Shown in pieces: positions 4,359 to 47,714 of a stretch of 64,000 nt of DNA. How positions within the stretch are numbered: the first letter of the stretch is position 1; every line of letters starts with the position of its first letter. A program made the position numbers and the translations under genes. Under the pieces are notes generated by a model, which did no database searches, was not told where the DNA came from, and saw nothing but the letters and a program-made list of their open reading frames with translations. Origin of the DNA: Nemertoderma westbladi (taxonomy: Eukaryota > Animalia > Xenacoelomorpha); contig JAUCBJ010008410.1 of assembly GCA_032718475.1 (NCBI GenBank), forward strand, positions 1,112 to 65,111, read 5' to 3'.

Positions 4359-4403
4359 TACTGCTGGGAAACGGTCCACCTTGCAGCCGTCTAGCCACCC
4401 TCA

Positions 4404-4560: not shown

Positions 4561-4652
4561 CGTGAGAGTCATGCTTATTCAAACGAGGTTAGTTTTCCCT
4601 AACTACCGATTGATTGATTGATTGAAAAATAATAATGTTTAATTTTCACCTT

Positions 4653-21305: not shown

Positions 21306-21478
21306 GCGTTTAGATGGTTATGATGGAGGTGCTAATAGTCCCAGTGTCTGTGGTGGAGCCGGTGGTATGGACACAGCAACTATTGTGATTGGCGATTTGG
21401 GAGATTCTACAAAAACTGGAGCACTCCTGGCGCATGAGATTGGACATCTTCTCTTATTCCTTCATGATGAGGATATGG
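21306..21478 (+). CDS. Host ADAM/reprolysin (M12B) metalloprotease, zinc-binding exon
   Basis: AG acceptor (21304-5; alternative at 21312-3); encodes GGANSPSVC...LAHEIGHLLLFLHDEDM; GT donor at 21479, phase 1. Confidence 0.85.
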
Positions 21479-21644
21479 GTAAATATAACATTATATTAGT
21501 TTTTATAAGTTACAACATAAATTAATATATAAAGATAAAATATATGTCAAATACATGCCTTTCTCTCTAATTCTCTCTGGGAGGGACTGTGTTGACATAA
21601 AATCATAAATGACTTTATAATAAGACTTTATGCATAAAATGATT

Positions 21645-24095
21645 ATCATTATTATTATTATTATTGTTTATTTCAGGCTATACGGCCCATAGTAAAATAT
21701 ATATATATATACACGAACACAACTGATACAAGACTTATTAGTATTATAATTAAATAGCACATATTATTATCCTAACTAAATATTCTACTGTATTGGTGAC
21801 AGAAATTAAATGTAGTACTTAAAATATCGTTATTGGATTTAGATACTCTTCTCTCGAGACTACCCAGAGACGCATGATGAATGTGTACGAACATTGGTAG
21901 GTTAAGCCTACCAAATGTCAATGACATGCTCGTCGGTTCATCATTAGTCATTCTAGGGACATTAAATAATAAACGAACAGCATTGTTATATGCAACCGAT
22001 AGCTTATTAAACACTGCACCAGTATAATTACGCCGTGCCCACAATGCATTACAATACACTGGTGTTATGTAAGCTTTAAATAAGCACTTTTTAACATTAT
22101 CTGAGCATCTTCCAAATTTTCTAACGAGCATATTCGCCCTAGCGTATATCGAGCATGTCTGTGATTTAATATCAAAGTCATCATCCGTACTACAATGCAA
22201 CCAGTGTCCTAGGTACTAGAATTTTTCTAGTATGTCGATTGGTCTGTTATATAGATAGACCCTACCTACTTCCAAACCTTTGCAACGTTGAGGCACATAA
22301 TATAAACATTTAGTCTTTACTGTATTAAACAAAATTGAATTTGCATTTGCAAAAGATACTGCCTTATTAATTAGTATTTGCAGGCCAATCATTGAGTTTG
22401 ACAATAAGCACAAATCATCTGCGTACATGATATGGTTTATACGTAAACCTCCTAAACAACAACCTACACCCGTGTCAGTGAGTTGTTTACTTAAGGGGGG
22501 GGTATACCCCCCCTCAGGTAAAATTTTCAAATTGTTGTTTCCTTATTTCATCTAGTGCAGAATTTAATGAGGATTACAAATCTGAAAACCGCTTAGTGAG
22601 ACCTCTTTCGGTTCTCGAGTTATCACTGTTTTTCCATATGACGGTCTGTCCGTCAAATTGTAAGAAAGACAGAAGACCGACAGTCAGACAGATAGACTAG
22701 ATTCGACCAAAAATTAAAACTGACATCGGAAATGAAATCAGCGACCCCGAAAACCCCCGTAATGAACATTTTAGCTCGTTGGTATGCATCCTTCGTGCCA
22801 GAAATAATTAACCAACCAGAACGCAGACAGCCAATTTTGGCGGGACGGTTTAAACTTTGAAGGGCATTTTCTCGGAATGACATTTTTCATTTTCAAATTA
22901 CTACTCCTCCGTCATTTTTTAACCAATTTTCTTCGTTTATGGCTCATTCGAACGAGCTTTGGAAGCTCTTTAAAAGTTATCTTATGGAATTTTGATAAAT
23001 ATTACCATTTTTTCTAATTAGCCAATTTTAATTAAAAATATGATAATTAATTAATTAATTTAATTAATTAAAATAAAAATAGCTAATTAAAAATTCTATA
23101 AGATAACTTTTGTAGAGTCGATCACGCTGAGTCCAAAAAAGTTGGTTTCAAGAAATTTGGACCAAAATTGACGGACTAGTAGCAATTTTAGTGAAATCTT
23201 TAATTCCGCCGCCCGCCGCTAGGGGGAGGCTATAAATTTTCAAATTTTACTATAAAGGCTATTTGGCATTCCATACAGTGGTTGACCATGACAAAATAGC
23301 AATATTATCATTTAACACTAATTGACAGCCATTTTAAAAAAAGGTTCATGGGGGGGTATACCCCCCCCTTAAACTGTCAACGTATACAATAAATAATGTC
23401 GGGCTTAATAAACCACCCTGGCGGGTACCATTAGATACCGTAAACGTTGAGGATTTATTTCCATCCCAATTGACACACATTTGCTGCGTCCTATACCAAA
23501 AAGCTAACAACTGTACAATATATACCGGGAAACCTAACGCCAATAATTTCTTAAAAAGTTTAAAGTGGTTTACTCTATCGAAGGCTTTGGAAGCATCTAA
23601 CATACACACAAAAACCGGTGTGTCATTGGCAAGATAATAGTTGATTAATTCCTTCAGTGTATATACACATGTTTCTGTACCTAGTCCCGGTTTAAACCCG
23701 AACTGATTACCTCTAGTCGCAATATAATTATGACACCTACTAAGTAAAATAATTTCTAGAATTTTACTGAGCACCGTTGACAATGCGATACCTCGATAAT
23801 TGTCCTTAGACGTTACATCACCAGTACGATCCTTTAATAAAGGTATAATAATACTTAGCATTAAACTTTCAGGCATGTATCCATGTATAAGAATTGAATT
23901 TACTAAGATACGTAATTTAGTTAATAAAGAATAACACAAACCATAATATAAATGCTCACTTACTAACAAATCAGGGCCATATGATTTTCCTAAATTTAGG
24001 TTATTTATCGCGTCAAATAACTCTTCTAGAGATACTAGCTTAATATCGGAGACACACATTATATGTTTATAATAATATATACATATAATTAACAT
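21645..24095 (-). mobile_element. 5'-truncated LINE (CR1/L2-group RT), split by a MITE
   Basis: NYRGIAL, QFGFK, LDASKAFDRVNH, GTRQGGLLSP, YADD; (AAT)n tail near 21650. The frame VDSLSKQL is restored when the MITE is removed. Confidence 0.88.
22495..23368. mobile_element. Non-autonomous DNA transposon, Kolobok-type (TTAA TSD)
   Basis: TTAA at 22491-22494 and 23369-23372; perfect 19-bp TIR GGGGGGGGTATACCCCCCC. Purine termini fit Kolobok rather than piggyBac. Confidence 0.85.
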
Positions 24096-24399
24096 TAGCT
24101 AAGCAACCGACATGTGTATTATGAAGCTCAGGCAATTACAAAATCTTTTTTTAGTGTTTTCACAAATGGTGCCTTACGCAGTTTCCTATAGCAGCAATCC
24201 TACTTACTATAGCAATGGGTTTGCCATTCAATTATACAGTATTAATTATATCATGAATTTTAATTTTTTAGGCCCTTTTACATACTGTAAGGTGACTGAC
24301 AAGATTAGATGTTAAGGTTATCTCTATTACAACACTGATATTATAATATATTCATCGTCAGACAATACAATATTGAAAAAGTACCGGTATGCATATATA

Positions 24400-26460: not shown

Positions 26461-26987
26461 TGGTAATCATATTGATACAGTTCGGGTAGGGTAGGTTGAC
26501 CTCAGGTGACTAGTAAAATCAGCTGACAGAAAACTCACAGAACGTGTACTTATTAACCACCTCACACCAGCTATAAACGTACAATACGCAAACGAGTTCG
26601 ATACTGGATGGTGAATTCTACACGGCTTTCCCGTCTGAAATTTATTTTGGTGCACTATTCAACTGTCATCTTCCGTATATTTTATTTTTTGGGTGTACTA
26701 TATTTTTGTGTACTATTGCTAACCAATCAATGTATTTACTCAATTTCAAACCACACGCCTTTAACAATTAAATCTTGGTGCAATCATGGAATGCTTAATA
26801 TAGACGGAACCACATTAGTGTTATTTGCCATTGTGCATAGAGGGGTTAAGTCAGGTACAGTGTGTTCGCTGGATTATGCCACAGTCCTCTGGAAATATGA
26901 ATTAAAACACCAAGTATAGTATATACCGGTATTTAACTTCTCAATTAAGTAACTAACACAACACTATAAAATATTACTATCTCAGAC

Positions 26988-28711
26988 TCAATTTTTTTTA
27001 CGTTTTAAGGATTTGAACCTGGTCACATTAGAACTTCCGATTTCAGTTCTCACAATATCATCTTTGCTTTTTTTAGTTTCAGCGCTCAAAAACAAGTTCA
27101 CAATCTTTGATATGTACTTCCAATGATGCGATTTATGTAAAGTACATAAAAACGTGCAGTCCAGCTCATCTTTCAAAGATTCGAGGCAAAACCGCTTTAG
27201 AATTTCAGCCGAATTTCTGAGCATAGATACTGTTAGATATGGAAACACTGATGACAGAATTGCGAAGGTTTTAGCGCAAAAAGAAACAAACTCCTCATGA
27301 GCAATACATAAACCACCCTTGTTTATTTTTTCCATATACGACTGAGATCCTGGTAGATCTTGAACGAGATGAGACTGTTCACATTTATCCGGAGACAAAC
27401 TCTCAACAATCCAACCAGCAAGATATTCAATGACATCAAGACTCTCACTGGTAACATCCAAATCATTAAATACAAGTTCTTCTCTAAGACAGATTTCCTC
27501 CAACTGATGGAAGGCTGTCTCATATTCTGGTCTGGCGATGTAATCCGTAATATCCAATGCTTCTTTTAATAAACACTTAATCTGGAGGATATTTTCCGAA
27601 GTACGAGCCTGGCGCAATCCAATTAGAAACATTCCACCGGAGATCTGGCGGTAGGCCAAAAATCGCAACTCGATCTTCTCATCTCCTAGTACGGATAAGT
27701 TGAAATGTTTATAACCCCAATTATTAAAAGCAAGATCTAGAATTTTTGCGACATTAGTTGTTGTGTAAATGAAGGCCCTGATCGTGTAAGTAGTGAAGCA
27801 TTGATGTGGAACGCCCAAATCACGCCATCTACAAAAAAAATCCGCAAACTTTCCGAAGAATATAATTCGTTCATCGCCAACTGAGAATGTTCTCGAGTAT
27901 GGCGAAGAAGTTGCTGTCTTCGTATTCATAAACAACCAGAATATACGAAACAACTTTAGAAAATTAGCTGTAGCATTGCTCTTAAGATAAAACTCCATTG
28001 CTTCAATTGTTCGCCGATCATATATATTCAAAACCAGTTGAGTGTTCTGTTTGTTGTTACTGAAGTTGAGAGTTTGATAAGATAACCGAGGAGCACGACG
28101 TAAATTCATTTGTTCTTGGACTGTGTCCAATTTGTAGAGCATTTTCAGGTCATCGCAGTTTGCTTGACTTTCCCCTCTTATAATAAAGTTCATCACACTT
28201 GTCAATAAGGCTGGCTGATTGCTTTTTCATTGTTTCGAGCGTTATCAGCAACAAATATTCGAGGAATAAATCCCGCATCACGTAGCAAATTGTACAATTA
28301 ATATAGTTGAGCAAATATTTCTTCTCCAGAAAGGCTGGCGGGGCACGGAGTTTGTTTAACAACAATTGCTTCGCCATAAGTTAGTCCTCGAACCATGAAA
28401 CAAAATAAAATTTTGTCACGAGAATCAACAATCCCTCCCTGGCAAAAGGAAGCGCCACGTTTCAAATAAATTTCGTCCCCATAAATGGCAACCTGTCTGT
28501 CAATATCCATTCCCTGTATAGCATATAGTATAGTATATAGTATAGTATAGTATAGTATAGCGTTAATAAAGGCAGGCCCGGACGATGTCAGCAGGAAAAA
28601 TGGGAAACTTCTTACAATACCGATACCAAAGAAATCCAGAAATTCCCTCGGTAATTCGTTTTCATCCGAAATATGAGTGAACAATGTGACTTCGTTGATC
28701 AACCGCACCAA
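26988..28711 (-). pseudogene. P-element/THAP9-like transposase, disrupted
   Basis: DEIYLK..FCFMVRGL, VADNARNN, EKIELRFLAYRQISGG, IEYLAGWIV motifs. Stop at 28298, frame break and apparent internal deletion. TIRs not identified. Confidence 0.75.
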
Positions 28712-29414
28712 TTTAGACTTTAAATTAACTTTACTAAACCCAGAGTTGTTACGATGTAGCCAACTGAAATTATACAGCGGAATTTCGCTTCCTTGTTACT
28801 TCACTATAAAACTATCAAGTCCGACTGAAATCGAAAAAGAGAGGAAACAAGCCGTCTCATCCAGTTCAAATATATCTACAAATCCTTCCCGTCGACGAAC
28901 TCAACTATCTCGCCCAGCTAGTGAAGGTTCTGCAGACAAGAACCCAAAGGAATCACTAGCCAATCCAGACTGTCCAAATCCTTAAGTTTCTTCATCTCCG
29001 ACGCTTCACATTCGATCTCGGTCTGGTAGCGGACTTTGTTGGTTATTTCCTATAGTTAGCAATATCCAAAGCCTGTTGAGATTTTTACTTGATACACAGC
29101 AATTGATAAAGTTAAGGATGTGTCATACAGCAGCACTTGGCTGTGAACACAGAAGTGTTTATTTGATGGATGTGGGTTTGTTATGCTTTGGTTACGGATC
29201 TTGTTAAGCAAATAAAATGAAAAATGCAGGTATTTAACAAGGAAAATGAAATCTTGTAATAAACACAAATAGTGAATCATCAATGCAATTACAATATTAA
29301 ATGTTCATTCAGATAAAGCCAATATGTATGTATGTATACAACAGTTTACCATGCCATATCTGATATGACTTACACTACATGCAGATCAACATACATTGTC
29401 TTTTATTTTTTCAG

Positions 29415-29537
29415 ATAAACCACTATGTAGAGATTATCATGAATCGTGTGCTGGCTGGGAGAATATTGGTGAATGTGTAAACAACCCAGTGTGGATGACT
29501 TATAACTGCATGGTGTCATGCGATACATGTCCTGATG
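29415..29537 (+). CDS. Host gene exon encoding ShKT domain 1 (phase 1-1)
   Basis: TTTTTCAG acceptor; DKPLCRDYHESCAGWENIGECVNNPVWMTYNCMVSCDTCPD (6-Cys ShK pattern). Donor is GCTAGT, not GT. Confidence 0.8.
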
Positions 29538-29836
29538 GCTAGTATTTGTGCATAATAATATAATAAAAATAAATTTTTAGATTCAGTTAATCTCTAATAA
29601 TTATAATATGCGAATTTATGCACCGAGTCTAGCTTTGGGTCGTTTTTACTCCATTGACTAAATAGTCTGTTTTCCTTGCTGGTAGCAGCTGATATCAACG
29701 GCGCTATTTATATCTTTACAATATCATTGTTTTTTTTGTCGGTTGTTTTATACTAAATATATTAATGATGTATGATAGACCTAGGTATGAGGTAAGTCAG
29801 TTTTTCAGTTTTGTTCTTAAATAAAGTATGTTAACA

Positions 29837-30932
29837 GTGCGACGAACATGACGGGAATGCGGGGATCGCAAATATTAGAGAATGAAGGTCAGCAGCACCC
29901 GCAAGCAAAATTAAGTTAAGGTATAAATGCCTGTCTATATTATAGTCCTTCTTCAGGCAAATAAAATAAGTACAATATAACCGTTAACACGTTAGATATA
30001 ACTGAAAGTTTTAAATTTCCCTCCAATTGTAAAGGTTATGCAATGCTTGATTATATGGTAAAGTAGGTGTGAGTTGGTAAATGTAAAGTATAGTAGGTGT
30101 GAGGTACAGTAGGTGCACGCTGGTAAATATTACTACATTGAGTAGGTGCACGCTGGTAAATATTACTACATTGAAAAGAAGGTAACAATGAAATATAATT
30201 ATGCTAAAGAATGAATAACAATAATATGAATAAATCGTGGTAAGTATGTAGAGTAGGTGCACATTAATATTATGTACCGGCGGTAAATATTAATACAACA
30301 CATAAAATAGGAAACAAATAAACTAAGAGAGAAAACATAATTATGTTATGCATGAATATATTAATATTATGTAACGGTTGTAAATAAGGTGTGAGGTGCA
30401 GTAGGTGCACACTGGTAAATATTAATACATTGCAAAGGAGGTGACAATGAAATAATGAAAGAAATATAATTATGTTATGCAAGAATATTAATATTATAAC
30501 AGTGGTAAATCATAGAATATGGTGGTAATGTAAAGTAGATGTAGGGATGGTAAGTGAAGTAGGTGTGAAGGGAATGAAATATAATTATGCTAAGCGTGAA
30601 TATTAATAATGTGTATAAATCGTGGTAAGTATGTAGAGTAGGTGCAAATTAATATTATGTACCGGCAGTAAATTTAATATAGTATAGTAATATAATAATA
30701 TAGACCCCTAGATCCCTTCCTATACTGTAACTCACACCTACTTTACCATATAATCAAGCATTGCATAACCTTTACAATTGGCGGGAATTTTTTTAAAACT
30801 TTAAGTTATATCTAACGTGTTAACGGTTATATTGTACTTATTCTATTTGCCTGAAGAAGGACTATAATATAGTCAGGCATTTATACCTTAACTTAATTCT
30901 GCTTGCGGGTGCTGCTGACCTTCATTCTCTAA
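29837..30932. mobile_element. Non-coding foldback element with ~200-bp inverted repeats and a one-sided tail (Penelope-like or MITE)
   Basis: Inverted repeats ~29872-30075 / ~30729-30935; TATGTTAACA direct repeat at 29827-29836 and 30933-30942; internal AGGTGCAC repeats. Confidence 0.7.
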
Positions 30933-31332
30933 TATGTTAACATCTAATATTTTAACAGTGTTGAGTGATTATATAGTATATTATTATAGTAGAGTAGAAA
31001 TGAGCCACAGTAAGTAAAGAAACACTCGGGGTGAAAGAATTTGTTATTTTAAGTAACAAGTCGGTTTAAAATAGACCAAAGAACGTTATATGTTTTTTTG
31101 TGTTAGATCGTGCATTTTAGTACATGTGCAATTTTGAAGAAATCTGTATTTAATTAATTTAGTATTATAATATTCTATTTTTAGAATTTACTACATTTTT
31201 TGGTATGTTGGTAGTTCGTGTCATTTAAAAATACACCATAAATACTGGACCGTAAAATTGTACATTGTATGATGTTGTTTCTTCTTCTCTGAATCTGTTC
31301 GCGTAATATACTGTGTACATTGTTTATTTCAG

Positions 31333-31449
31333 GAACATGTACAGATTCCGCATCCTCATGTGTTTATTGGGAAAGTATTGGTGAATGTGTAAACAACCAA
31401 ATTTGGATGCATCAGAACTGCAAGTTATCTTGTGGAACATGTACTGCTG
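31333..31449 (+). CDS. Host gene exon encoding ShKT domain 2 (phase 1-1)
   Basis: TTTCAG acceptor; GTCTDSASSCVYWESIGECVNNQIWMHQNCKLSCGTCTA; donor GTTAGT. Confidence 0.85.
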
Positions 31450-31544
31450 GTTAGTTTCTGCACATATATGTATATTATACATATGTAATATAATCAGATA
31501 TACAATTTTAGTACACCTACAGTATATTCATACAGTTGGAAATG

Positions 31545-31640
31545 AATAATTATTTTGGAATCTAATAATTATTATTTTGGAATCTAATAATTATTATTTT
31601 GGAATCTAATAATTATTATTTTGGAATCTAATAATTATTG
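31545..31640. repeat. 22-bp tandem repeat (TTGGAATCTAATAATTATTATT) x~4
   Basis: Seen directly. Confidence 0.9.
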
Positions 31641-32150
31641 GGAAATCGTATGACAAAAACTTTTACTATGGCGGGTTAAGTGTCTAATTAAGTGCAGTCT
31701 TCGTATCTAATTGGTTTCCTTTCTTTGAAAGTCTCACCTCCGTGAATTTTTATCTCATCGGCAAAACAACAAAGGTAAATGTCAATTATGGGAATGATGG
31801 TGTTTAGTGTAGTGTATATTCCTGTTTAGGAGATCTAACCAACCCCCCCCCCCCCCCCCCCCCCCCCCAGGAATAGTTTTTAATTTGAGCCCGAGTTAGG
31901 ATGTAGGCGCCATGCATTTTTTTCATACTTACCAATTTTGGGCCCCCATAATTACTTATTTTGGGCAAGGCCAATAAAATCTAATTTACGACAACGAGTT
32001 ATTAAGTCGGGGTGCCATTACTTTGATTTTAGAACTTCTTTACTAGTGATTCTAGAATCTACCTCATTAAAAAGGTCGCCCTTGTTGATTTTAAACTCCT
32101 ATATTCTTCATCCAATTACAACATGAAATATTAATTCTACTCTATTTTAG

Positions 32151-32205
32151 ATCCATGTGGATGCATTAATCCACCCTGCGTGATGACATCAACTCTAAGT
32201 GCTGA
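32151..32205 (+). CDS. Host ADAM exon with Met-turn (phase 1-2)
   Basis: TTTTAG acceptor; DPCGCINPPCVMTSTLSA; donor GTTAGT. CxC...CVM is the reprolysin Met-turn. Confidence 0.8.
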
Positions 32206-33778
32206 GTTAGTATTCTTAAAGATTACAACGTATGCGCAATCTCTAAAGTATTAGTTCCAATCCTGCAGATGATGCGACGCTATAGAGTTTTACAAAAAGT
32301 TGATTTATTTCAAAGGGTTACCCACAGCCTGCTGACCGCACTTAACAAACTTACAAATCGAACATATTATTTTGTCTGGAAGATTCACATCGAAAAAAAT
32401 TATGATATTTGATCACTCTTATTGTCACTTTTTTTACAATTAAAAACTGATGGTAGTATCCCAAAATTTAGAATATATTACATATCCTTTATTAGGGTTA
32501 ATGAAAAGATAAACAAACAAGTAAAAACAACCTGCACCTGCACTCAACGAATATAAGATAACCAAAATATCAAATATGATAAGGCCTATCAGACTATACT
32601 ACTCGAGTTAGACAGATTAATAACGGAAATCAGAATACTGCTTGTCTACTAATAGAATAGCGCTAAAGAAAATAAAGATAGTAACAAAATGTTGGGAATT
32701 GCAGTCTAGTAAAGCAGAAGAAAATACACAGTAGGGTGCATCAAATGCCCCACTTTTTTTAAGAAATGGAATGGATACTTTTTGTCCCTAGATTTATTTT
32801 GTTCAATTTGATGATAATAATGAAATTTTGAAAGTTTTGTATAACCTGTAATTTGTCTTCGGGGTCGGGGTCCTTAGAGCACTCAAGATATGACAGTCGG
32901 CGATTGATCCAGTTATCGTTATAGATCCAAATAAGCTTATGCATGGGTGTGGAAATGTTATTCAATCATCAAAATTTATGTATGATATGCAATTTGCTTT
33001 CAAATGGTATGCTACATGATACCTTTCCAAAAATATTTACAAGATTGATTATCCCCCATTGACAATGGCAGTGTGGTGATCTAATATTTTTTTTGTTTTT
33101 AATCTAATATCAATCCTTATGACTATAAAGGCCCTTGACTGAGTACCACCCCACCAGAAATGAAATAATTCCTAAACCAATCGATGATCTGATGAATTCA
33201 AAGATACAAAATACAAGGAGATTTATTATGCTTGAGTTTGAGTATGTTTTATATTTCCCCTTATTTTTATGAAATGATATTATTATATTTATTCAATAAT
33301 ATTCCCTTTGTAATAATTGTTTTACGAAACATATTATTATATACATACTCTTACTACAGTTACTGGTAAAGTTAATTAATATGATGGGATTAATATTATG
33401 ATGAGTTACTTAGGTTTATGCAAGTTCGGTGTTTTCTTCCTATCTGCTTCATAGACCTGAAGGACATTTTGGTGTTAGAAGTTGAAGTGTATATATCGAA
33501 TATCATTATAATATAATAGGCCTACTAGCCAAACATGACTGCAGATATATAAACCTAGCGCAGTACAGCAGTACTTCTGACAGTCATTGTAGATGCTTAG
33601 TACCGGTTGCCGGTAGCACAATGATAAACTATAATGTAATACAACTAGAGTATTTAAATTTCCCGCCACACCCTTAAGATACTGATCATCGCATAATATA
33701 TTGTCATACAGTTTAAAGGTAAGTTACAGTTTCTAACACTCCCACTTGACTATAATAATTATGCGACATTGAATTTAA

Positions 33779-36700
33779 TTACTCTAATGAAATAAGACCA
33801 ATTTTTGAGCAATGATACTCAAATATCGCTTTCGTGAGTCCCTTTGTAAACATATCAGCAGTCATTTCCTTCGAGCTGCAGTATTTAACAGTAACAATAT
33901 TGCGAGCAATTAGTTCTCGAATGAAATGAAACCTGACATCGATATGTTTAGTACGATTGTGGAAGACAGGGTTCTTCACTAGTGCAATAGCACTCTGGTT
34001 ATCCTCAAACATCATTACTGGTTCAACCTTTGACAATAATACGTTTGCTATCAAGATGCGCAACCACTTTGCCTCTTGGGCAGCTGAACTTAATGCAACA
34101 TATTCTGCTTCTGTTGAAGATATTGCCACAATGTCCTGTCTCTTGCTTCTCCAGCTAACAGCACAATCTCCTACAAAGAATATATATCCAGATGTAGATT
34201 TACGAGTTTCAGAACATCCTGCATGATTAGCATCTGAGTATCCACTTGCAGAAATCACTGAAGTTTCTTTAGCATTATATTTTAAACCTACATTCAATGT
34301 ACCACGGATATAACGAAATACACGTTTTACCCCCTTCCAATGTGCCTCTGATGGATCTGACATGTATTTACTTAAAATACCAATAGATGTAGCTAAATCT
34401 GGTCGAGTTCCAGTCATTGCATATGTGAGACTACCAATCGCTGTTTGATAAAGAGTTTTGTCAGCTGGTTTCTCATCATCAGTTCTCTTCTCGAATTTCA
34501 CATTTGGATCAATTGGGGTAGCAACTGGTTTGCAGTTTAGCATACCAAATCTCTCAAGTACATTTTCTAAGTACTTTGATTGATTTATAGTCATTGTCCG
34601 ATTCTTACGATCCCTAGTAATCACCATTCCAAGAATATATTCTAATTCTCCTTTATCAACCATTTCAAATCGACTAGATAATGTACATTTCTCTTGCATT
34701 AATATTTCATCATCACTTGATGCTATGAGAATATCATCTACATAGAGAACAATGATTACTACAATATCATTGACATACTTGATATACATGCACGGATCAG
34801 CTTCATTTTGTTTGAATCCATTCGAAGTTAGATGCTTATCAATTAATTTATTCCAGCATCTAGAAGATTGTTTTAAACCATAAATGGCCTTCTTTAGTTT
34901 GCAGACGAAATCAGGACGTTTGTCATCAACATAGCCCTCCGGTTGCTTCATATAGATTTCATTCTCAAGTTCCCCATTTAGAAAGGCTGTTTTAACATCC
35001 ATTTGATGTATTGACCAATTCAGTTGATTTGCAATAGCTAATACTGTACGAATAGCACTGTATTTAGCAACAGGTGCAAACACTTCATCATAGTCTATCC
35101 CATATTCTTGAGTAAAACCACGTGCCACTAGACGGGCTTTATAACGTTCAATGGAACCATCAGGTTGATATTTATATTTGAGAATCCATTTGCAATCAAC
35201 AATATTTGCATCTGCGGGTGCTTTTACCAAAGTCCATGTCTGATTCTTTATTAGAGATTCATATTCAGTATCCATTGCCTCTCGCCAATAATCACCATCA
35301 TTTCGTGACCATGCTTCTTTGAGTGTTTGAGGTTCAATACTCTCCTCCTCTACAATCATGGCCTTCGGCCATTCAATTGTACCCAATCGGTCTGGTGGCT
35401 TACGTTGACGTGTTGGATAATGACGAACACTTTTTGATGTTGATGATGAAGTCATTTCACCTTCATTGATTGTTTCCACTACAGGTTCATCATCTAAATC
35501 AAACCCATGAAATACTTCACCATCAGATGAAGACACACTATCTCCTATAGTCTCAATCTCCATAGCCTCTTGATTATTTACAATGTTTGATGTATGATCA
35601 ACTATACTCGTCCTAGTCTGTTGAGCCTCTTGATTATTTACAATGTTCGATGTATGATCAACTATACTCTTCCTAGTCTGTTGAGCCTCTTTTACAACTA
35701 GCTCCCCTTGATCAACATCGGAACTTTCCTTCATATATGGAGGTTTTAATATTGGATTTGTGACACGATTTGACATCTTTGGAAAACTATTTTCAAAGAA
35801 CTGTACATCACGACTCTCATAAATCCGCTTACTCTCTGGCTCATATAATCTATAACCCTTAGACTTTCCACTATATCCAATAAAGATGCACTTACGAGCC
35901 TTTGCATCGAGTTTCTTTCGTTTCTCTCGTGGTAGATGCATAAATGAATAACATCCAAAAATTCTCAAAGAACTTACATCTGGTTTATTGCCAAACCAAA
36001 CTTCATAGGGAGTCGACCCTTGAACTGCATTTGTAGGACATCGGTTGCGAATATAAACAGCAGTGCTCACAGCTTCTGCCCAGAACTGTTTTGATAATCC
36101 TGCTGCATATAACATTGACAATGCAAGTTCCATAATTGTGCGATTCATGCGCTCTGCAACTCCATTTTGTTGTGGATTATATGGAACAGTGAATTCATGC
36201 ATAATTCCTTTAGATAAACAATACTCTTTTAATGAGGTTGAGTTATATTCGCCACCATTATCTGAACGTAATATCTTTACAGTTCGACCAATTTGGTTTT
36301 CAACTTTTGCTACAAAATCCTTGAAGCATTGAAATAGTTCACTTTTATGCTTCAATATATAAACTGTTGTATATCGTGATTTATCATCAATGATAGTAGC
36401 AAAATATTTAGAACCACCAATTGATTCAGTGTCCATAGGGCCACATATATCTGAGTGAACAATATCAACTAGATCATCTGCCCTACGAGAAGAATGTGTA
36501 GGAAATGGGACCTTGTGCGATTTCCCTAGTGCACAACCCTCACAATTCGTATTGAAGGTTTCTATATCACAATTAATTCCACTTACCATTTCATTATCCA
36601 ATAATTGCTTTAAGCTATCAATTCCTACATGACCAAATCGTTCATGCCATATTTGACCAGGTAAAGAAGTAGCAACCAATGCAGAATTACCAGTATGTAC

Positions 36701-37114
36701 TTCAAGTTTATACAAGTCACCATCCACTCTACCATTTGCAATTACTTGTTTTCCATAACCAATTTCACATTCTGACCTATAAAAATTTATATAAGCCCCT
36801 TTCTTTGTCAATGCACGAACTGAAAGAAGATTCTTCCCTAGTTTTGGAACATACAAAACTTCAGAAATACAAAGTTTAGCTCCGCAAGTAGATTGAATAT
36901 TAACAATTCCTTTACCTATAGCATTTACATAACGTTTATCACCAAGATAAACATATTTGCAATGGTCAAATTTTTCATAATTTATGAAACAATCTGACAC
37001 AAATGTCATATGTTCGGTAGCTCCTGAATCAATATACCAATTATCACACCCAGTATTCGAATTGCTAATATGCAAAGCAAACGAACAGTTTTCAAGATAA
37101 TCCAGCTCATTCAT
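33779..37114 (-). CDS. pol: Copia Pol (protease-integrase-RT-RNase H)
   Basis: WYIDSGATEHM, HERFGH, VHSDICGP, RSDNGGEY, NGVAER, YKARLVARG, YVDD, SSTEAEY, ADMFTK; 60-bp tandem repeat in the linker. Confidence 0.95.
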   Translation of the reverse strand: MNELDYLENCSFALHISNSNTGCDNWYIDSGATEHMTFVSDCFINYEKFDHCKYVYLGDKRYVNAIGKGIVNIQSTCGAKLCISEVLYVPKLGKNLLSVRALTKKGAYINFYRSECEIGYGKQVIANGRVDGDLYKLEVHTGNSALVATSLPGQIWHERFGHVGIDSLKQLLDNEMVSGINCDIETFNTNCEGCALGKSHKVPFPTHSSRRADDLVDIVHSDICGPMDTESIGGSKYFATIIDDKSRYTTVYILKHKSELFQCFKDFVAKVENQIGRTVKILRSDNGGEYNSTSLKEYCLSKGIMHEFTVPYNPQQNGVAERMNRTIMELALSMLYAAGLSKQFWAEAVSTAVYIRNRCPTNAVQGSTPYEVWFGNKPDVSSLRIFGCYSFMHLPREKRKKLDAKARKCIFIGYSGKSKGYRLYEPESKRIYESRDVQFFENSFPKMSNRVTNPILKPPYMKESSDVDQGELVVKEAQQTRKSIVDHTSNIVNNQEAQQTRTSIVDHTSNIVNNQEAMEIETIGDSVSSSDGEVFHGFDLDDEPVVETINEGEMTSSSTSKSVRHYPTRQRKPPDRLGTIEWPKAMIVEEESIEPQTLKEAWSRNDGDYWREAMDTEYESLIKNQTWTLVKAPADANIVDCKWILKYKYQPDGSIERYKARLVARGFTQEYGIDYDEVFAPVAKYSAIRTVLAIANQLNWSIHQMDVKTAFLNGELENEIYMKQPEGYVDDKRPDFVCKLKKAIYGLKQSSRCWNKLIDKHLTSNGFKQNEADPCMYIKYVNDIVVIIVLYVDDILIASSDDEILMQEKCTLSSRFEMVDKGELEYILGMVITRDRKNRTMTINQSKYLENVLERFGMLNCKPVATPIDPNVKFEKRTDDEKPADKTLYQTAIGSLTYAMTGTRPDLATSIGILSKYMSDPSEAHWKGVKRVFRYIRGTLNVGLKYNAKETSVISASGYSDANHAGCSETRKSTSGYIFFVGDCAVSWRSKRQDIVAISSTEAEYVALSSAAQEAKWLRILIANVLLSKVEPVMMFEDNQSAIALVKNPVFHNRTKHIDVRFHFIRELIARNIVTVKYCSSKEMTADMFTKGLTKAIFEYHCSKIGLISLE

Positions 37115-37980
37115 TCTGATTCTGATTCACTACCTTTAACAAGAAGTCCCTCTGACTTCTTTCGAGTTGGACACGCTGAAGCCCAATGTGAATTATCACT
37201 GCAAAGTTGACAACCTCTTTGAGTACATTTCCGAGCAAAATGTCCCCCAACACCACACTTGAAACATGGAGCCTTGCTCTTCCGGAATCCTGGTGAAGAA
37301 GTGAACTGCTGCGGCTTGCTACTCCCACTGTCTTGTTGTCCCTTCTTTGCATAACCCTTTTGTTTCACTGATAAAAGGGCATTCTCTGTTTCACTATTGT
37401 GTGTGTGCCGTGCACTTTCATTAAACAGTAAACCCTTTATATTGTCCCATGACATTTCATTGACAGCAACATCAATCGCTGACAGCATGGAATTATACGA
37501 TGATGGAAGTGATCCTAAAACAGTAAGTGCGAATGCCTTGTCCGTAATATTCTCTTCTGGATCAAGTTCATTAATCTTTGTGTAAAGATTCCTCATCTCC
37601 GTAACATGTTTCTCAACGTTGCCACCATTTGGCAACTGTTTATTGAAAAATTCGGTTCGAAGTCTAACAATCTTTAGCCATGATTTTCGATCAAACTGTT
37701 CCTCTAATGCATCCCAAGTTTCCTTTGCAGTCGTTGCATCCTTTATATAGCAACGCAATTCCGGATCAATAGCTAGTGCAATAGTTGTGCGTGCGCGAGT
37801 TTTCCTTCGCATAAACGCAGCTCTACCAGCTCCTTCCGGTGGAGTAGGATCTCCAATGACAAACTCCCACAAATCGTGATGTTCCAATGTAAGCTGCATT
37901 GTGTAACGCCATTCACGATAGTTTTCGGACCGCAGTTTCTCGATTTTCTCTATCTTTAAACCGCCAATATCATCCGCCAT
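37111..37980 (-). CDS. gag: Copia Gag
   Basis: NYREW..M..L...DLW N-terminus, LGSLPSSY, zinc knuckles CFKCGVGGHFARKC and CQLCSDNSHWASAC. Confidence 0.93.
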   Translation of the reverse strand: MADDIGGLKIEKIEKLRSENYREWRYTMQLTLEHHDLWEFVIGDPTPPEGAGRAAFMRRKTRARTTIALAIDPELRCYIKDATTAKETWDALEEQFDRKSWLKIVRLRTEFFNKQLPNGGNVEKHVTEMRNLYTKINELDPEENITDKAFALTVLGSLPSSYNSMLSAIDVAVNEMSWDNIKGLLFNESARHTHNSETENALLSVKQKGYAKKGQQDSGSSKPQQFTSSPGFRKSKAPCFKCGVGGHFARKCTQRGCQLCSDNSHWASACPTRKKSEGLLVKGSESESE

Positions 37981-40900
37981 TTCAGTAAACTATCTGTGTG
38001 CAATTAATTATAACAGCAACAAAGGAGTAAACAATATCGATTTGTTAAATTTCAGTCACTGATCCTTTCCCACTACTGCTACCGCTTGCCGGTACCGGTA
38101 ACCACGATAATTAGCGATTTTTGTATTTGCAAAGTTTCCTTGCATACCAGTACTCATTACAATTCATTACAATTAACAGTACCATAGCATCTGACTGCCT
38201 GTTACCTGGGCCCATAACCTGTTAGAAGTTGAAGTGTATATATTGAATATCATTATAATATAATAGGCCTACTAGCCAAACATGACTGCAGATATATAAA
38301 CCTAGCGCAGTACAGCAGTACTTCTGACAGTCATTGTAGATGCTTAGTACCGGTTGCCGGTAGCACAATGATAAACTATAATGTAATACAACTAGAGTAT
38401 TTAAATTTCCCGCCACACCCTTAAGATACTGATCATCGCATAATATATTGTCATACAGTTTAAAGGTAAGTTACAGTTTCTAACATTTGGTAATGCGTTT
38501 CAAGTTTGGTGGCCTTTAGGTAGTCTGCACTTTGCTTCACCCCTCGTTCTGCTCCATCATTGATATTTGTGATAGCAACTATGTTGGATTAAGATGTCTT
38601 AAATGCTGCTGATAATTGCCACTTATCAACATCTTCTCTTAAAAATGAGGAATCTAACTCTAATAGAGAAAATATATACAAAGAATCCTCCATTACTAAG
38701 TCGTACAGTCGGGTTGATAATGATATATTAGCTGAAAACTTTGACTTACCAAAGCCAGTACCAAAACGGTTCCTTGGGGATATAACAATGGTTGATGGTT
38801 TGACTCCTATCAGTTGATCGGCCAATAAACGTTTTTCCTTATCTGGAACATGGCTGCCAAATAGAGCTAAGGTTACCTACCGTCTTAGCCGTTAAATACC
38901 AAAGATGTGGATGAAATTCTACTCTGGCACTATTTGAAACACAACTGTTTACCTCATAATACTGCAGTAGAAGATGGAACAGCTCCAAATCATTCCAAGG
39001 TGCATTAGCAACGAACAACATATCCACCAGCATGAGTATATATGTGAAGCAAATGTAACAAATTGACATATCTTCTCAATGTGGGAGGTTGAAGTTATTG
39101 TTCCCAATGGTAAATCCTTGATAGATTCCTGGAATAGAACAATTTTAATTGAATAGATTAATATAGACATCCACCTGGCTTTGTGTAAGGCACCAGGTCG
39201 GTTGAATTTAAAAGCTGCTTGATCACCAGAAGGTAAACCATTGACAAAGAGTAAACATAGCTCAGCAAAATTCTTGTAGTCATCTCTTGGCATATCTTTA
39301 TACTGACCTACTGACTTCAGTAATTTGGATCTATCATTCAATAATGATTGAGCTTCTACACTATATTGAGATATATCCATTATAGACAGCTTCCCTTTAT
39401 GGTCATTGTATGGCAGAAGTTCATATTTAGTGCGAAATCTAGCAAACAATTGAACTTCTTGAGTCTTTGAAGCTTCAATATGTAAATTTTCAAAGACATG
39501 ATTTAGTATTAATTCCCTAATATGGTGGCAACATCCTGACCACAATAAGGCTCTACCAAGCCGTTGTTGAATTGATACACAAGCAGCAGTTATATATGTC
39601 CTGTATTAGTTGCTGTGGTATCGAATGTCATGTTGACAATATTGTCAGAAAAGTTCCCGGACTCTAAAAGATCAACTGTTAGATTAGCTATAATAGAACC
39701 TGAGGATTGATCTGTGCCTGGTTGGTAAGAAGACATTCTTCCAACACATGGATTGTCAAGTTTGGGCAATAGTTTTGAATTCCAGTGTAGTGTTGCTAAA
39801 TGTGGGGATAACCAATTTCTTTTCATTGCATCTGCAATTTCTTTACATATACTACGACGTGCACAGTCAAAGGATGCATATGAGGTGGAAACTTTGGATA
39901 CACCTCCACCAGCTTCTTTGATTAGTGCTTTAGAATAGGCAGATTGTTGGGTTGGAGTCAGGTTGCAGCATCTTTGACATCTTTAATATTAACATTACAT
40001 GGCCACAGTTGAAATGTTGTTTTCAATCGATCATCCATTGCTTTTAATTTTGCTTTAGTTGCATCAGTAGTTCTTAAGTTTAATGGTATACTTCTTAGCT
40101 TAGCATTATCATCTAAAAGCTTCACCATTTTTTCATGACCTTTCCTCTCAGTTATCATAGGTATATTTCATTTATTATAAAATGTGACAAGTTGATCATT
40201 AACAATTTTCGTTGCTTCCCATTTTGTACGTTGAATAGATGTATGGTAAATAAGGCAAAATAGTTTACAATTTGGAAGTCGAGATCCACAAATATCAGCA
40301 TCATGGGAAGTTACTCCTCTTGGTAATCCAAACAGCATACTACTTTGACGAGTTTTTTGACTAGTCATATTATTTATCAATAATTATCTCTTTTGTAGAC
40401 AATTAACAATACTAAGTATGTACTGGTACAGTGGTAAATAAACATATAACGATATAGGCCTAACAGAAGAACATTGCAATGGAAAGGGCAATGCATCACT
40501 TTCAACAAGATTTGTAGTTTTGGAACGGTTTTGTGGCCCATCCAGCCTAAAATAATAACAAAAGCAACAATATTATAATAATAATTGCACTATTGCACTA
40601 TCTATAACACACACAGTACAACTGAATTGTTAATATAGTAATTCAGATATAGTGAATGTATGAATGCAGAATATGGAAATGGGGTCTTTTTGAAATAGCC
40701 TTGTACTGTTTGAAAATCTAGCTGAAATTGGCAAAATTTTTAAATACAGCAGCCCACTGTCGTCAGAGGGACATGTAATGGATATCCACATGATCCTTAA
40801 TATATAATTATAAGTATATCATGCAGCATATCATTTAAAATTCATTCAAAACCATTCAAATCATATAAAAATGTAAGGGGCGTTTGATGCACCCTAATAC

Positions 40901-41039
40901 AGAATCAAGCAATTCTGCACTATGTTTCCATATTCATTAGGTAGGCAATAAGACATAAATAGACATAGACAAAACGCGCATTCAGATATATCAAGAAAGC
41001 AGTACAGTACAGAGTTCCGGTATAACTAAAAGAGATTTT

Positions 41040-41696
41040 CATCATAACATTGACGTAGTGAGTGTAGGGATTGGTCTGTTAAACCCAAAGTCAACAATTT
41101 ATGATGATGTATCCATACAATTTTATTGTAATCTCCAAACCGTTCAACTATTGTTTTTAATGCCATTCCATAATTGGCATCTAAAGCGGTATAACCTTCT
41201 TTTATTTGTGCAGCTTCCCCTATAAGTAGAGGCTTTAAGTTGTTAAATTTTTGAGACTTTGTAAGGTCAGCCCTGGATCCAACCTCAGCATGAAATTGGT
41301 CAATAAAACATGGCCATTTTGTAAGTGAGCTATCGTATTTTGTTAATTCAATTTTTGGTAATTTCGATGTAGTTACAGTAGATGAACTAGACCTTGATGA
41401 CTGGTTTCTATCAGTGTTTGCTCTGTCTATAAGTGTTCTAAACTTATTAATCTGCCCTTTAACTACATCTGAACGAATGCCATCATCTCCTTCCCGCTCA
41501 GCTATTGCCTCAGATGCAACTTCATATTGGTCATCATCACTAAAAATTCCTTGAAATTTAAAATTAAAATTAAAATTTCTTGAAATGTATTATCCATTCT
41601 TTCATGAAAAATACATAATGTCTCATATGTACCTTCATTGTCATTTTTCACATTAAATAATTTCTCTACATTTTGATATATTTTTGTGTAAGCCAT
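41040..41696 (-). pseudogene. BEL/Pao gag (DUF1759-like) remnant
   Basis: Minus strand near 41200-41370 reads SKLPKIELTKYDSSLTKWPCFIDQFHAEV...QKFNNLKPLLIGEAA. Boundaries approximate. Confidence 0.65.
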
Positions 41697-43126
41697 GCAT
41701 TTATTTTTTCTTTCTAACTTTACTTTAGCTATTAAGCTGTTTGGATCTATTCAACTTGTTTTAGAGGCATACTATTGCATAGGTTTTGTAGGCCTGTAGG
41801 CTCAGGTGATGTAATTAATAATAAACCTAATTAACCCAATATTTCATTTGGTTAGGCCGATTTACACTGTACATTATTATACCAAGCTGCCAAACAATTA
41901 ATAATCATCATCAACAGTCAAGTCAACCAATCAAACAGTTAAATATAGCAGAAAGGAGATAATCATTAAATATAAGCAATCAAGAAGCGGAAACAGACAG
42001 TAGAAAGGAACATACATTGATTGTAGAATTCGACGAGTAATTATATAGAATAATTTCAGCAGTATGATAATATTTCATCATATACATTAACACAATATTC
42101 ACTGCAGTAGGATAGCAAACTAACCTCGGTCTTTATAAGTTAATTAACATTTCAACGTATATTCAAGTATTCAACATTTCATTATCTGTAGGAAGATGGC
42201 CTAGGACAGTAGCACTATTTCCTGTTTCCAAGGCATCCACAGATACAAAACATGTTAATCAATGCGGTCCGACATCCCCAGTCTGCAATAGGATGTGCAA
42301 TATAATGTAATTAGCTGTATTTACTGCTACACGCTGTACTTAACATTTCGGATTACATAAAAATACTGCAGTACTGAATGCTACTAAATTAGCTTAATCA
42401 AAAATTTGATATTATTGCAATGCACCGGCTACCGTGTAGTACTGAAGATACCAATTGTAAAAATAAGGACTTGGACCTAAGACCTAAGAAGATATAATAA
42501 TAAGTAATAATATGGCGTAATAATAATAATAAAAAATAAAATAAAATAAACGATAGGAGAGTACAAGAGTCAGGATGTAGGTACTTGGTGATGGCCAAAT
42601 TTAGGATTACATTGTTCTGTTAATATAGTTATTGAGTTAATGAGTCTAGATAATCGGATATTATAGACTGACATATTATTCTGAAGGAATTCTTCTTAGT
42701 TAAACTTACATCAATTACAAACCAAGTTGTTTGTTGTTGTAGTTGTTTATCTTTCCTTTAGCCCTGATATGTAATATATTCGCAAATTTTGGATACTATA
42801 ATCAATTTTCAATCGTGAAGTTTATCCTCAGTGGCGAACTCATTTATTTATATTCATCTAGTTAGCAGGGTTGTCAATTTACTTCTTTCGGTCTGATTAA
42901 TTTTCTTCATTTTTTGTTTTAAATAGGGTACAATGAGCAGAAATAGGAAGATCTGCATTATGTTAAATATTAAATTAATCAAACTAAAAATTGAAATTGA
43001 CCAGAATTTTATTTTATTGATTTTAAGTTATTACTCCTATATCCAAATAAAAATGTATTGAAATTTTCTGATTTTCTGAATTCAATTTTATAGATTACTA
43101 AAATAAGTTATTTTGATATGTATTAG

Positions 43127-43283
43127 GGATGCTACTGCATGGTCTGATTGTTCAACCAGCACTTTAGATTTCTACAATGAGTACTATGGTTGCCTTGACA
43201 ATGATTTTGGCTTTGGGTTAACTGGTCCAACTTGTGGTAACAGGGTTGTGGATGCTGGAGAACAGTGTGACTGTGGTAGTGTG
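43127..43283 (+). CDS. Host ADAM exon: end of catalytic domain and start of disintegrin (phase 2-0)
   Basis: Acceptor TATTAG; EDATAWSDCS...GCLDN...CGNRVVDAGEQCDCGSV; donor GTAAGT. Phase matches the preceding exon. Confidence 0.9.
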
Positions 43284-43451
43284 GTAAGTACAAGTTAATA
43301 CACTACATACTGTACTTATTGTATAAGGAGAACTTCAGATTGTCCGATGTCGTTTTCCCTACCTGAAGGTCAATCTAAGGAACTAGTTTCATACCACCCT
43401 GCCTTAAGAGGAATCTGGCAGAAAAAAAAAGAAAGAAAAGAGTTGGATAGT

Positions 43452-43760
43452 GACAGTATCGATTTCTGGAGTTAGTGTGGTGCCCTGCGACAGTATCGAT
43501 TTCGGGAGTTAGTGTGGTGCCCTCCCTGCATTAAAGATAGTGACAGTATCGATTTCGGGAGTTAGTGTGGTGCCCTCCCTGCGTAAGTTGGATAGCGACA
43601 GTATCGATTTCGGGAGTTAGTGTGGTGCCCTGCGACAGTATCGATTTCGGGAGTTAGTGTGGTGCCCTCCCTGCATTAAAGATAGTGACAGTATCGATTT
43701 CGGGAGTTAGTGTGGTGCCCTGCGACAGTATCGATTTCGGGAGTTCGTGTGGTGCCATCC
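43452..43760. repeat. Minisatellite, 7 copies of GACAGTATCGATTTCGGGAGTTAGTGTGGTGCCCT with short recurring linkers
   Basis: Seen directly; linkers (GC, CCCTGCATTAAAGATAGT) recur. Confidence 0.9.
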
Positions 43761-44385
43761 CTCCCTCCCTGCATTAAAGATATGGGGAAGAATTATTATC
43801 ATCTAGATAATGATATATTGACATATACACTGTATAATGATACAGTGCAGTGGCTTCTTGCCATCCACTGCAATCATATAATAAGATAATCATATGACAA
43901 GATTGGTCTATAATTTAAGTTGCACGATTTTCTTTAATGACAACCGGAGGAGGGCAAGAGGCTGCTGGCCAGCCAATCAGAACATGATACGTGTCTGCTA
44001 AAGGATAATCGGTCTTGATTATAAACGAAGATGAATTGGAGTTGAATTAACATGGTTGATAAACTGTGGTGTGTTGCGATGCTGAGGCGACTAACGAAGC
44101 ATCCTTTCGATTAATATATTTTGTTCATGGAAGTTGTTAGCAGTTCGATAACCTGCAGTCCGGAAGGATTGTTATAATTTCTAAATATGTTTAATGAATC
44201 AATGATATATCGATTTGTTATTGTAATAATATTATTGTATTATAATAGTCAATCAACTAAACTACATCTAATTCCAATCATACTCTTTATATTTATTTTT
44301 CTTAGGACTATAATTTACTGGTTAACCATCCCTTTACTGTTATATACATACTATCACAGTATAATATATTTTTTATTATTAAAAG

Positions 44386-44535
44386 GATATTTGCCAAGAG
44401 GAAGATAATCTATGCTGCAACCCACGAACCTGTCAGTTCTACTCCGATGGATATGAAGTTTACAAATACCATGACAACATTGGGGTTGACTTGTGCTCGA
44501 AGTTCACATGCGAGGCCCAGGTTACTGCAATTTAA
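44386..44535 (+). CDS. Host ADAM exon: disintegrin-like continuation (phase 0 start), possibly terminal
   Basis: AAAAG acceptor; DICQEEDNLCCNPRTCQF continues the EQCDCG motif; reads to TAA at 44533-44535 or may splice at CAG|GTTACT (44520). Confidence 0.7.
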   Translation, partial: DICQEEDNLCCNPRTCQFYSDGYEVYKYHDNIGVDLCSKFTCEAQVTAI

Positions 44536-47128: not shown

Positions 47129-47714
47129 AAAACTTGTGTTTTGGAACCCTCAACCAAACCAAGCTGAAGCTTTCGTTCATGTTTTGGGTGTATCCCAAAA
47201 CACAACGTCAGAGTAAATTTTAGGTCCGACAAACATTGATATATTGGCAGTAACAAAAGTAGGAATACAGGGTCCAAGTGGTGGTCTTTAACAGCATTGA
47301 CTCCAGTCTTCTGATAATCACACCAACTATCTGCGCCTGTAAGGCAATACATATATATGCCTTTGCCCAGGAGTGCCATGGATAACCCCATGCCTGAAAG
47401 AAGCCAGTATGTTACGTTTCATATTATTTACACAGGCAGTGATTTCACATTCGGTATTAGCTGAACGGTTGATGGATACCTTTATGGCATGTCCATAGTA
47501 GCGACTAAGATGATCTACAACAGCCACAGTAAGTCGGTGTTTAGCTCCACCAACGAATTTGCCATCTGGTAGTTTACCCTTTTAACCATTTTTGAAATCG
47601 CGAAGGGCCTTTCCCAATATTTTTTTTACATGATTGACACAATCAATCTTCCGAACACGATTACATTCAAATTTAACTTCATGTTTCTTATTTGATTCAC
47701 CAATCACGTTCTAA

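What the first reader, a model, noticed from the sequence alone, without database searches (positions are those of the whole stretch)
21306..44535. ADAM-like protease with two ShK toxin-like domains spliced into the catalytic domain
Seen: six exons join in phase (x-1, 1-1, 1-1, 1-2, 2-0, 0-) to give ...HEIGHLLLFLHDEDM-[ShKT1]-[ShKT2]-DPCGCINPPCVM...WSDCS...CGNRVVDAGEQCDCG..CCNPRTC. Both ShK exons are symmetric phase 1-1, so skipping them yields a conventional HD..CxC..CVM catalytic domain. Known: ShKT modules usually follow astacin or MMP23 catalytic domains; in reprolysins the zinc motif and Met-turn are separated only by a short loop. Inference: exon shuffling placed optional ShK modules next to the active site (exosite or ion-channel targeting), an architecture I do not recognise. 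The ORF track misses these exons.
Basis: partly seen in the sequence, partly recalled or inferred. Interest (0 to 1): 0.85.

Follow-up and report, generated by a model that had tools for sequence, protein, structure and literature searches.

The report
ShK modules inside ADAM catalytic domain
In this animal gene for an ADAM-type zinc protease, two exons encoding sea-anemone-toxin-like (ShK) modules sit in frame between the two halves of the active site, so the enzyme likely carries extra binding modules right beside its cutting cleft, a layout I did not find described, though no RNA yet shows the splicing.

Summary
The six exons are real, lie at the stated coordinates and join in phase. Both inserts are Pfam ShK domains. 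Skipping them gives a canonical M12B catalytic half, with 16 residues from the third zinc His to the Met-turn (relatives 10-21); including them gives 55 or 96. (1) The ShK1 donor is GC, not GT, and read-through stops at once. (2) The zinc motif has Leu in place of Gly. (3) Both ShK modules are acidic and lack the channel-blocking Lys, so ion-channel targeting is unlikely. (4) The gene's 5' half is not in the window. Inclusion rests on indirect evidence: splice signals kept around both old duplicate exons, single copies of the host exons, no leader exon for a nested gene, and antisense-only long ORFs in the introns. I had no RNA run, genome or orthologue, and none of 120 listed ADAM relatives carries ShK. 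Best reading: a live ADAM-like gene with ShK exosite modules spliced into the lower catalytic subdomain (0.55). It is a new variant of a known kind, seen at one locus, with splicing unproven.

The parts
21306..21478 (+). Exon A: reprolysin-type strand region and zinc-binding helix, motif HEIGHLLLFLHD (Leu at the usual Gly); phase 2-1; GT donor
29415..29537 (+). Exon B: ShK module 1, six Cys, acidic; strong acceptor; phase 1-1 only through a GC donor
29538..29575 (+). GC donor of exon B (7 of 11 matches to the U1 consensus), in-frame TAG on read-through, and two AATAAA hexamers 25 and 31 nt downstream
31333..31449 (+). Exon C: ShK module 2, six Cys, acidic; phase 1-1; GT donor; tandem duplicate of exon B
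32151..32205 (+). Exon D: CxC motif and Met-turn (CVM); phase 1-2
43127..43283 (+). Exon E: last helix of the catalytic domain (WSDCS) and start of the disintegrin-like domain; phase 2-0
44386..44535 (+). Exon F: rest of the disintegrin shoulder, then a diverged tail and stop; likely terminal (ATTAAA/AATAAA 165-210 nt on), but a phase-0 donor-like site at 44521 could make it internal

Best explanation
This is the 3' half of a likely live, likely secreted ADAM-like (M12B) zinc protease gene in which two duplicated ShK exons are predicted to be spliced in frame between the third zinc histidine and the Met-turn, where they would loop out as binding (exosite) modules beside the cleft. Shown: exon structure, phases, domain identities, and the canonical spacing of the skip form. 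Inferred history: one class 1-1 ShK exon came to lie in a phase-1 intron three codons after the HD of the zinc motif and was then duplicated in tandem; both copies were kept long enough for the introns around them to diverge to random. Inferred structure: the first and last cysteines of an ShK fold are disulfide-bonded (recalled), so each module's ends lie close together and it can bud from the surface loop without separating the zinc His from the CxC/Met-turn segment. Inferred function: this segment begins the lower subdomain that walls the substrate pocket, so acidic modules here would bind or select substrate or matrix, as the inserted fibronectin type II repeats of MMP-2/-9 do (recalled), and would not plug K+ channels. 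ShK2 (GT donor) is likely the more regularly included; ShK1 (GC donor) is likely alternative.
For: Phase and frame of all six exons. The skip form is one contiguous ADAM domain with spacing 16, against 10-21 in 116 measured motifs, and A and D are single-copy in the window, so A must join D and B and C lie in that intron on the same strand. B and C share 82 of 123 aligned positions (shuffled 46%, z 7.2). Similarity extends about 25 nt into each flank (z 3.3 and 2.7) and then falls to shuffle level. All six Cys and both Trp are kept; dN/dS is 0.46. The GC donor has 7 of 11 U1 matches, as many as the GT donor of D; 12 of 742 GC dinucleotides in the gene span reach that. B's acceptor has 14 pyrimidines in 17, which 1.6% of AG sites reach. 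GC donors are enriched in alternatively spliced genes (PMC2490688). No signal-peptide exon candidate lies between A and B. 0 of 7 long ORFs in the introns are sense, against 15 of 18 downstream of F, as expected of a transcribed unit under selection. The lower subdomain is divergent and shapes the substrate pocket (PMC4885070).
Against: No orthologue or paralogue with the layout: 0 of 120 listed ADAM hits (of 349), 0 of 150 representatives and 0 of 13 metagenome loci carry ShK. dN/dS is not significantly below 1 (Fisher p 0.10, 37 codons). The flank similarity is partly just shared splice signals. GC donors are under 1% of donors in mammals (PMC2490688), and B is followed by a stop and AATAAA within 31 nt (4% of 40-nt windows in the gene span hold one). 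Gly is kept in 115 of 119 relatives' motifs and none has Leu. The signal peptide, prodomain and upper subdomain exons were not found in the window, and a virus-like element fills 1-17 kb. The ORF-orientation counts are not independent, because several ORFs come from one element. An insert of 39-80 residues here exceeds the 12-24 residue spacing given for M12B enzymes (PMC4885070).
Confidence: 0.55

Rival explanations
1. The ShK exons are used but act as an off-switch or make a non-cutting protein: ShK1 as a terminal or poison exon (GC site unused, stop, nearby poly(A) signal), and/or the insert and the Gly-to-Leu change disable catalysis.
For: Gly-stop on read-through of B, with AATAAA at +25 and +31; none within 300 nt after C. 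The GC/GT difference between B and C is also a silent third-position change of a Gly codon. Leu at the Gly position was seen in 0 of 119 relatives.
Against: The GC site is well compensated. All three His and the catalytic Glu are kept. Other ADAM-like proteins carry Tyr, Phe or Asn at the Gly position (4 of 119; the two Tyr cases appear to be the proteins of loci L009 and L010 that seeded my own query). A product ending after ShK1 would lack the Met-turn.
Confidence: 0.2
2. The locus is a decaying fragment or recent pseudogene, and the ShK exons are no longer spliced.
For: No 5' exons in 21 kb upstream; truncated, diverged disintegrin end; GC donor; Gly-to-Leu; very long branch in the tree.
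Against: No stop or frameshift in 775 nt of exons; cysteines kept; antisense-only long ORFs in the introns, including a young copia element with 99.6% identical LTRs. Introns of 8-11 kb occur in this gene, so a 5' exon beyond the window edge is plausible.
Confidence: 0.12
3. The ShK exons belong to a separate same-strand nested gene or a stranded gene piece, and the ADAM always joins A to D.
For: ShK exons are usually class 1-1 anyway (recalled), so the phase match is only about a 1-in-3 coincidence. Viper SVMP genes have no phase-1 intron in the catalytic domain (PMC4963849), so this intron is not shown to be old. One weak leader-like candidate lies between B and C (30343-30379).
Against: No leader exon candidate between A and B (0 found, shuffles 0.2; a crude scan). 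C has a good donor whose nearest recognisable phase-1 partner exon is D, 701 nt on. Same-strand exons with good signals inside a transcribed intron are normally recognised (general knowledge).
Confidence: 0.08
4. The modules steer the protease to potassium channels, like the toxin domain of MMP23 or worm BmK1.
For: The closest solved relatives by sequence are BmK1 (2MCR, E 7e-4) and the MMP23 toxin domain (2K72, E 0.12).
Against: Val/Ile-Trp in place of BmK1's Lys-Tyr; 2 basic against 6 acidic residues in B and 1 against 3 in C. An ShK-like peptide without a functional dyad was inactive on Kv channels (PMC5793123).
Confidence: 0.05

Closest known systems
ADAM9/12/28/meltrin-type ADAMs and P-III/P-II snake venom metalloproteinases (MEROPS M12B; PMC4885070, passages)
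   Same: Zinc motif with three His and Glu followed by Asp, CxC, Met-turn, WSxCS helix and CGN...GEQCDCG disintegrin start, in canonical order and spacing in the skip form.
   Different: One or two ShK modules between the third His and the Met-turn (55 or 96 residues against 10-21 measured); Leu for Gly; a phase-1 intron there; no full disintegrin, Cys-rich, EGF or membrane segment found in the window. Highest identity to the 32 references in the tree is 39%; no subfamily assignment.
ADAMDEC1 (decysin; PMC5174729 and PMC3055250, passages)
   Same: Truncated disintegrin domain, no membrane anchor and a non-standard zinc motif, if exon F is terminal.
   Different: ADAMDEC1 has Asp for the third His and no ShK; mammalian. 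The resemblance is convergent at most and was not tested by phylogeny.
ShKT-bearing metalloproteases: ShKT-astacins (PMC9848320, passages), MMP23, Brugia metalloprotease with BmK1 (PMC5793123, passages)
   Same: A metzincin catalytic domain and ShKT modules in one chain.
   Different: Their ShKT modules lie outside the catalytic domain (BmK1 C-terminal per PMC5793123; MMP23 downstream, recalled), and the proteases are astacin or MMP, not M12B.
MMP-2 and MMP-9 gelatinases (recalled, not read)
   Same: Small disulfide-bonded modules inserted within a metzincin catalytic domain and serving as exosites: the best 'works like' model.
   Different: Three fibronectin type II repeats inserted before the zinc motif, constitutive; a different family and module.

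Membership tests
M12B adamalysin/reprolysin catalytic domain | HExxHxxGxxH(D): three His, catalytic Glu, following Asp | tested here: met
   HEIGHLLLFLHD in exon A
M12B adamalysin/reprolysin catalytic domain | Gly at position 8 of the motif | tested here: not met
   Leu; relatives 115 of 119 Gly, 2 Tyr, 1 Phe, 1 Asn
M12B adamalysin/reprolysin catalytic domain | Met-turn 12-24 residues after the motif (PMC4885070) | tested here: inconclusive
   Met in the skip form (16); not met with ShK included (55, 96); which form is made is unknown
M12B adamalysin/reprolysin catalytic domain | Lower-subdomain cysteines (CxC, Cys before Met, WSxCS, CLxN) | tested here: met
   exons D and E
M12B adamalysin/reprolysin catalytic domain | Zinc-dependent proteolysis | not testable with these tools
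   needs protein
ADAM (classical) | Signal peptide, prodomain and upper catalytic subdomain | tested here: inconclusive
   not found in the window; no genome held
ADAM (classical) | Complete disintegrin, Cys-rich, EGF and transmembrane domains | tested here: inconclusive
   only the first part of the disintegrin domain; no later exons among 3223 six-frame ORFs; F may be internal, so not filed as a classical ADAM
ShKT domain (PF01549) | Six-Cys pattern, Pfam score above cut-off | tested here: met
   34.2 and 38.7 bits against 20.9; Atlas 0.93 with 194 shared features for B
ShKT domain (PF01549) | ShK fold with three disulfides | tested here: inconclusive
   AlphaFold2 model of B has three short helices but mean pLDDT 57
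ShK-type Kv channel blockers | Lys-Tyr functional dyad on a basic surface | tested here: not met
   Val/Ile-Trp at the aligned positions, net acidic (dyad per PMC5793123)

The most novel reading that the evidence does not exclude
An ADAM-type protease whose substrate choice is switched by splicing: zero, one or two ShK modules are toggled into the loop between the zinc histidine and the Met-turn, with a GC donor as the control point. It would be the first folded domain inserted at this position in an M12B enzyme that my searches could find, and a natural test of how far the metzincin lower subdomain can be opened.
Probability: 0.3. Interest if true: 0.75.

Novelty: new variant of a known kind. 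Interest (0 to 1): 0.52.

Why it matters
In ADAMs the stretch from the zinc motif to the Met-turn is short and is part of the active site, and extra domains are normally added after the catalytic domain. If this gene is spliced as predicted, a whole disulfide-bonded module can be grafted inside that stretch, giving an ADAM counterpart of the gelatinases' inserted exosites. It would also give a clean case for asking what dyad-less ShKT domains do, which reviews list as an open question (PMC5793123). One RT-PCR would test it. So far it is one locus in one unidentified animal.

Tried and rejected
RNA: the look-up of sequencing runs on 29380-32260 listed no RNA holder; this is no evidence either way, and no reads could be laid. 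No genome is held, so 5' exons and paralogues could not be sought. Homologue searches with exon A (132 candidates, none scored) and with the two ShK exons (no candidate) found nothing, which is weak evidence. The exon E search (196 hits, 150 listed) was dominated by unrelated proteins with repeats of the CGN..CD motif; 2 of 150 had a zinc motif. Only 4 of the 13 metagenome loci included a zinc-motif region, so that test is weak. The one search set is biased to canonical ADAMs because the query was a canonical profile, and 229 of its 349 hits were not seen. The first scaffold alignment misplaced the exons and was dropped; one search was used. The tree (33 rows, quick method) puts the gene on a long branch and gives no placement. 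The AlphaFold2 model of ShK1 was low-confidence, so no fold search was run. The spliced isoforms could not be folded with these tools, which leaves open whether the insert leaves the cleft intact. A third ShK exon was sought in six frames and not found (next best E 0.09). Exon A had no match among solved structures. Literature: searches gave listings in which I saw no ShK-in-ADAM architecture; of those hits I read passages only of PMC9848320 and PMC5778601. Supplements were not opened, and subscription papers and InterPro architectures are not covered. Earlier scan notes held nothing on this locus or layout.

Full report
The observation. B and C are ShK domains (Pfam E 3.7e-8 and 1.5e-9). A resembles reprolysin (Pfam E 0.15, below cut-off; Atlas). 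E matches solved ADAM and SVMP structures. Against a profile built from the zinc-motif regions of the hits, the form without ShK exons scores as a single domain (97 bits), while forms with one or two ShK modules split into two pieces. The distance from the third zinc His to the Met-turn is 16 residues without the inserts, 55 with ShK2 and 96 with both. It was 10-21 in 116 measured motifs (106 of them 14-15; 118 of 120 proteins had a motif, 119 motifs in all, 3 not measurable). A review gives 12-24 (PMC4885070, passages).

The donor after ShK1 is GC (G|GCTAGTAT); the matching donor after ShK2 is GT. If the GC site is not used, the frame ends in Gly-stop, with AATAAA 25 and 31 nt later; 4% of 40-nt windows in the gene span hold that hexamer. 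The zinc motif has Leu where 115 of 119 relatives have Gly; the other four have Tyr, Tyr, Phe or Asn. Exon F may be terminal (poly(A)-like signals 165-210 nt after the stop) or may splice on from CAG|GTTACT at 44521 (read's printout; my scored position there was off by one). A profile of 32 ADAMs run over 3223 six-frame ORFs found only E, A and F (E-values 9e-13, 0.006 and 0.35), so neither the 5' half of the gene nor later domains were detected in the window.

Are the ShK exons part of this gene? No transcript is available (one search listed no RNA holder, which is no evidence) and no genome is held, so the case is indirect. A and D each occur once and fit each other canonically, so B and C lie inside one of this gene's introns, on its strand and in its phase. 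B and C are old tandem duplicates. They share 82 of 123 exon positions; similarity runs about 25 nt into each flank (18 of 26 and 16 of 25) and is at shuffle level beyond that. All six Cys and both Trp are kept, and dN/dS is 0.46, not significant on 37 codons (p 0.10). The GC donor matches the U1 consensus at 7 of 11 positions, as does D's GT donor, and 12 of 742 GC dinucleotides in the span do so. B has the most pyrimidine-rich acceptor of the six. Used GC donors tend to be compensated in this way and are enriched in alternatively spliced genes, though they are under 1% of donors (PMC2490688, first of two parts read); non-canonical site use varies among animals (10.1101/616565, passages). A scan for a signal-peptide exon that could start a nested gene found none between A and B and one weak candidate between B and C. 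All 7 long ORFs in the introns are antisense, against 3 of 18 downstream of F. They include LINE, copia and DUF1759 (Pao-type; label recalled) remnants. This fits a transcribed unit that ends near F, but the ORFs are not independent counts.

Relatives. None with this layout was found. 0 of the best 120 of 349 ADAM-like hits list PF01549 or score on my ShK profile. The same holds for 0 of 150 representatives and 0 of 13 metagenome loci, only 4 of which covered a zinc motif. Direct searches with exon A and with the ShK exons gave nothing. These searches favour canonical ADAMs and do not show absence. The tree gave a long branch and no placement. Viper SVMP genes have no phase-1 intron in the catalytic domain (PMC4963849, passages), so the host intron is not shared with them. 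The organism is unknown; an earlier unchecked note on this genome calls it a fast-evolving animal.

Mechanism. The insert sits three codons after the HD of the zinc motif, at the start of the lower subdomain, which is divergent among M12B enzymes and forms a wall of the substrate pocket (PMC4885070). The first and last Cys of an ShK fold are bonded (recalled), which would let each module bud from this loop without pulling the active site apart; my model of ShK1 was too poor to check this (pLDDT 57). The nearest solved relatives of the modules are BmK1 and the MMP23 toxin domain. Both modules have Val or Ile where BmK1 has Lys before Tyr, and both are acidic; the Lys-Tyr dyad is key to Kv block (PMC5793123, passages). 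I therefore favour an exosite role, in the manner of the fibronectin type II inserts of MMP-2/-9 (recalled), at 0.55. The rivals are an off-switch or non-cutting product (0.2), a decaying gene (0.12), a separate nested gene (0.08) and channel targeting (0.05). Activity, secretion, inclusion levels and partner are all inferred.

Comparison with what is known. It works like an M12B ADAM, but I do not file it as a classical ADAM: the motif Gly is absent and the later domains were not found. If F is terminal it parallels ADAMDEC1, a secreted ADAM with a truncated disintegrin domain (PMC5174729, PMC3055250, passages). ShKT modules are common on astacins and other metalloproteases (PMC9848320, PMC5793123, passages), outside the catalytic domain in the cases I read. 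Literature searches showed no ShK inside an ADAM catalytic domain. I saw listings for most hits and passages of two, no supplements, and the library lacks most subscription papers.

Verdict. A real and unusual gene anatomy, and a new variant of a known kind. It is a single locus with unproven splicing, a non-canonical donor on one of the two inserts and an unseen 5' half. Interest 0.52; 0.75 if splicing toggles the modules in an active enzyme (probability 0.3).

Noticed in passing
window 1-17030: Maverick/Polinton-like element (label recalled from gene content): adenovirus-type protease ORF 2131-2613 (Pfam Peptidase_C5, E 6.5e-5), a capsid-like ORF at 842-2155, and polymerase-B-like ORFs split by stops on the minus strand (no Pfam hit). 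3954-10144 is repeated head to tail at 10143-16337 with 99.8% identity: a very recent tandem duplication or an assembly artefact.
   Followed up: partly
window 33473-38485: Young copia retrotransposon in the D-E intron, antisense, with 266-bp LTRs 99.6% identical; gag and pol ORFs are separated at about 37111-37126.
   Followed up: partly
window 29872-30935: Inverted repeats of about 200 bp (95.7% identical) around an AT-rich repetitive core between the two ShK exons, likely a non-autonomous DNA transposon. A long hairpin here could affect splicing between the ShK exons.
   Followed up: no
window 26988-28226 and 38589-39982 (minus strand): Transposase-like ORFs inside the gene's introns. The 412-aa ORF had no Pfam hit; a THAP9/P-element-like look is recalled, not tested.
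   Followed up: partly
window 49500-63020: Nested plus-strand LINE-type elements (endonuclease, RT, CCCH zinc-finger ORF1-like); 49853-51195 is repeated at 61646-62960 with 96.9% identity.
   Followed up: partly
window 327-893: Basic, Gly/Arg-rich 188-aa ORF just upstream of the capsid-like ORF of the virus-like element, possibly a core-protein-like gene.
   Followed up: no
L009:1101-1133, L010:1690-1722, L012:3206-3238: Uninterrupted ADAM-like frames in metagenome contigs with Tyr at the conserved Gly of the zinc motif.
   Followed up: partly
window 43441-43782 and 47678-48026: Short tandem arrays downstream of exon E and downstream of the gene; the second encodes a repetitive acidic ORF on the minus strand.
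   Followed up: no
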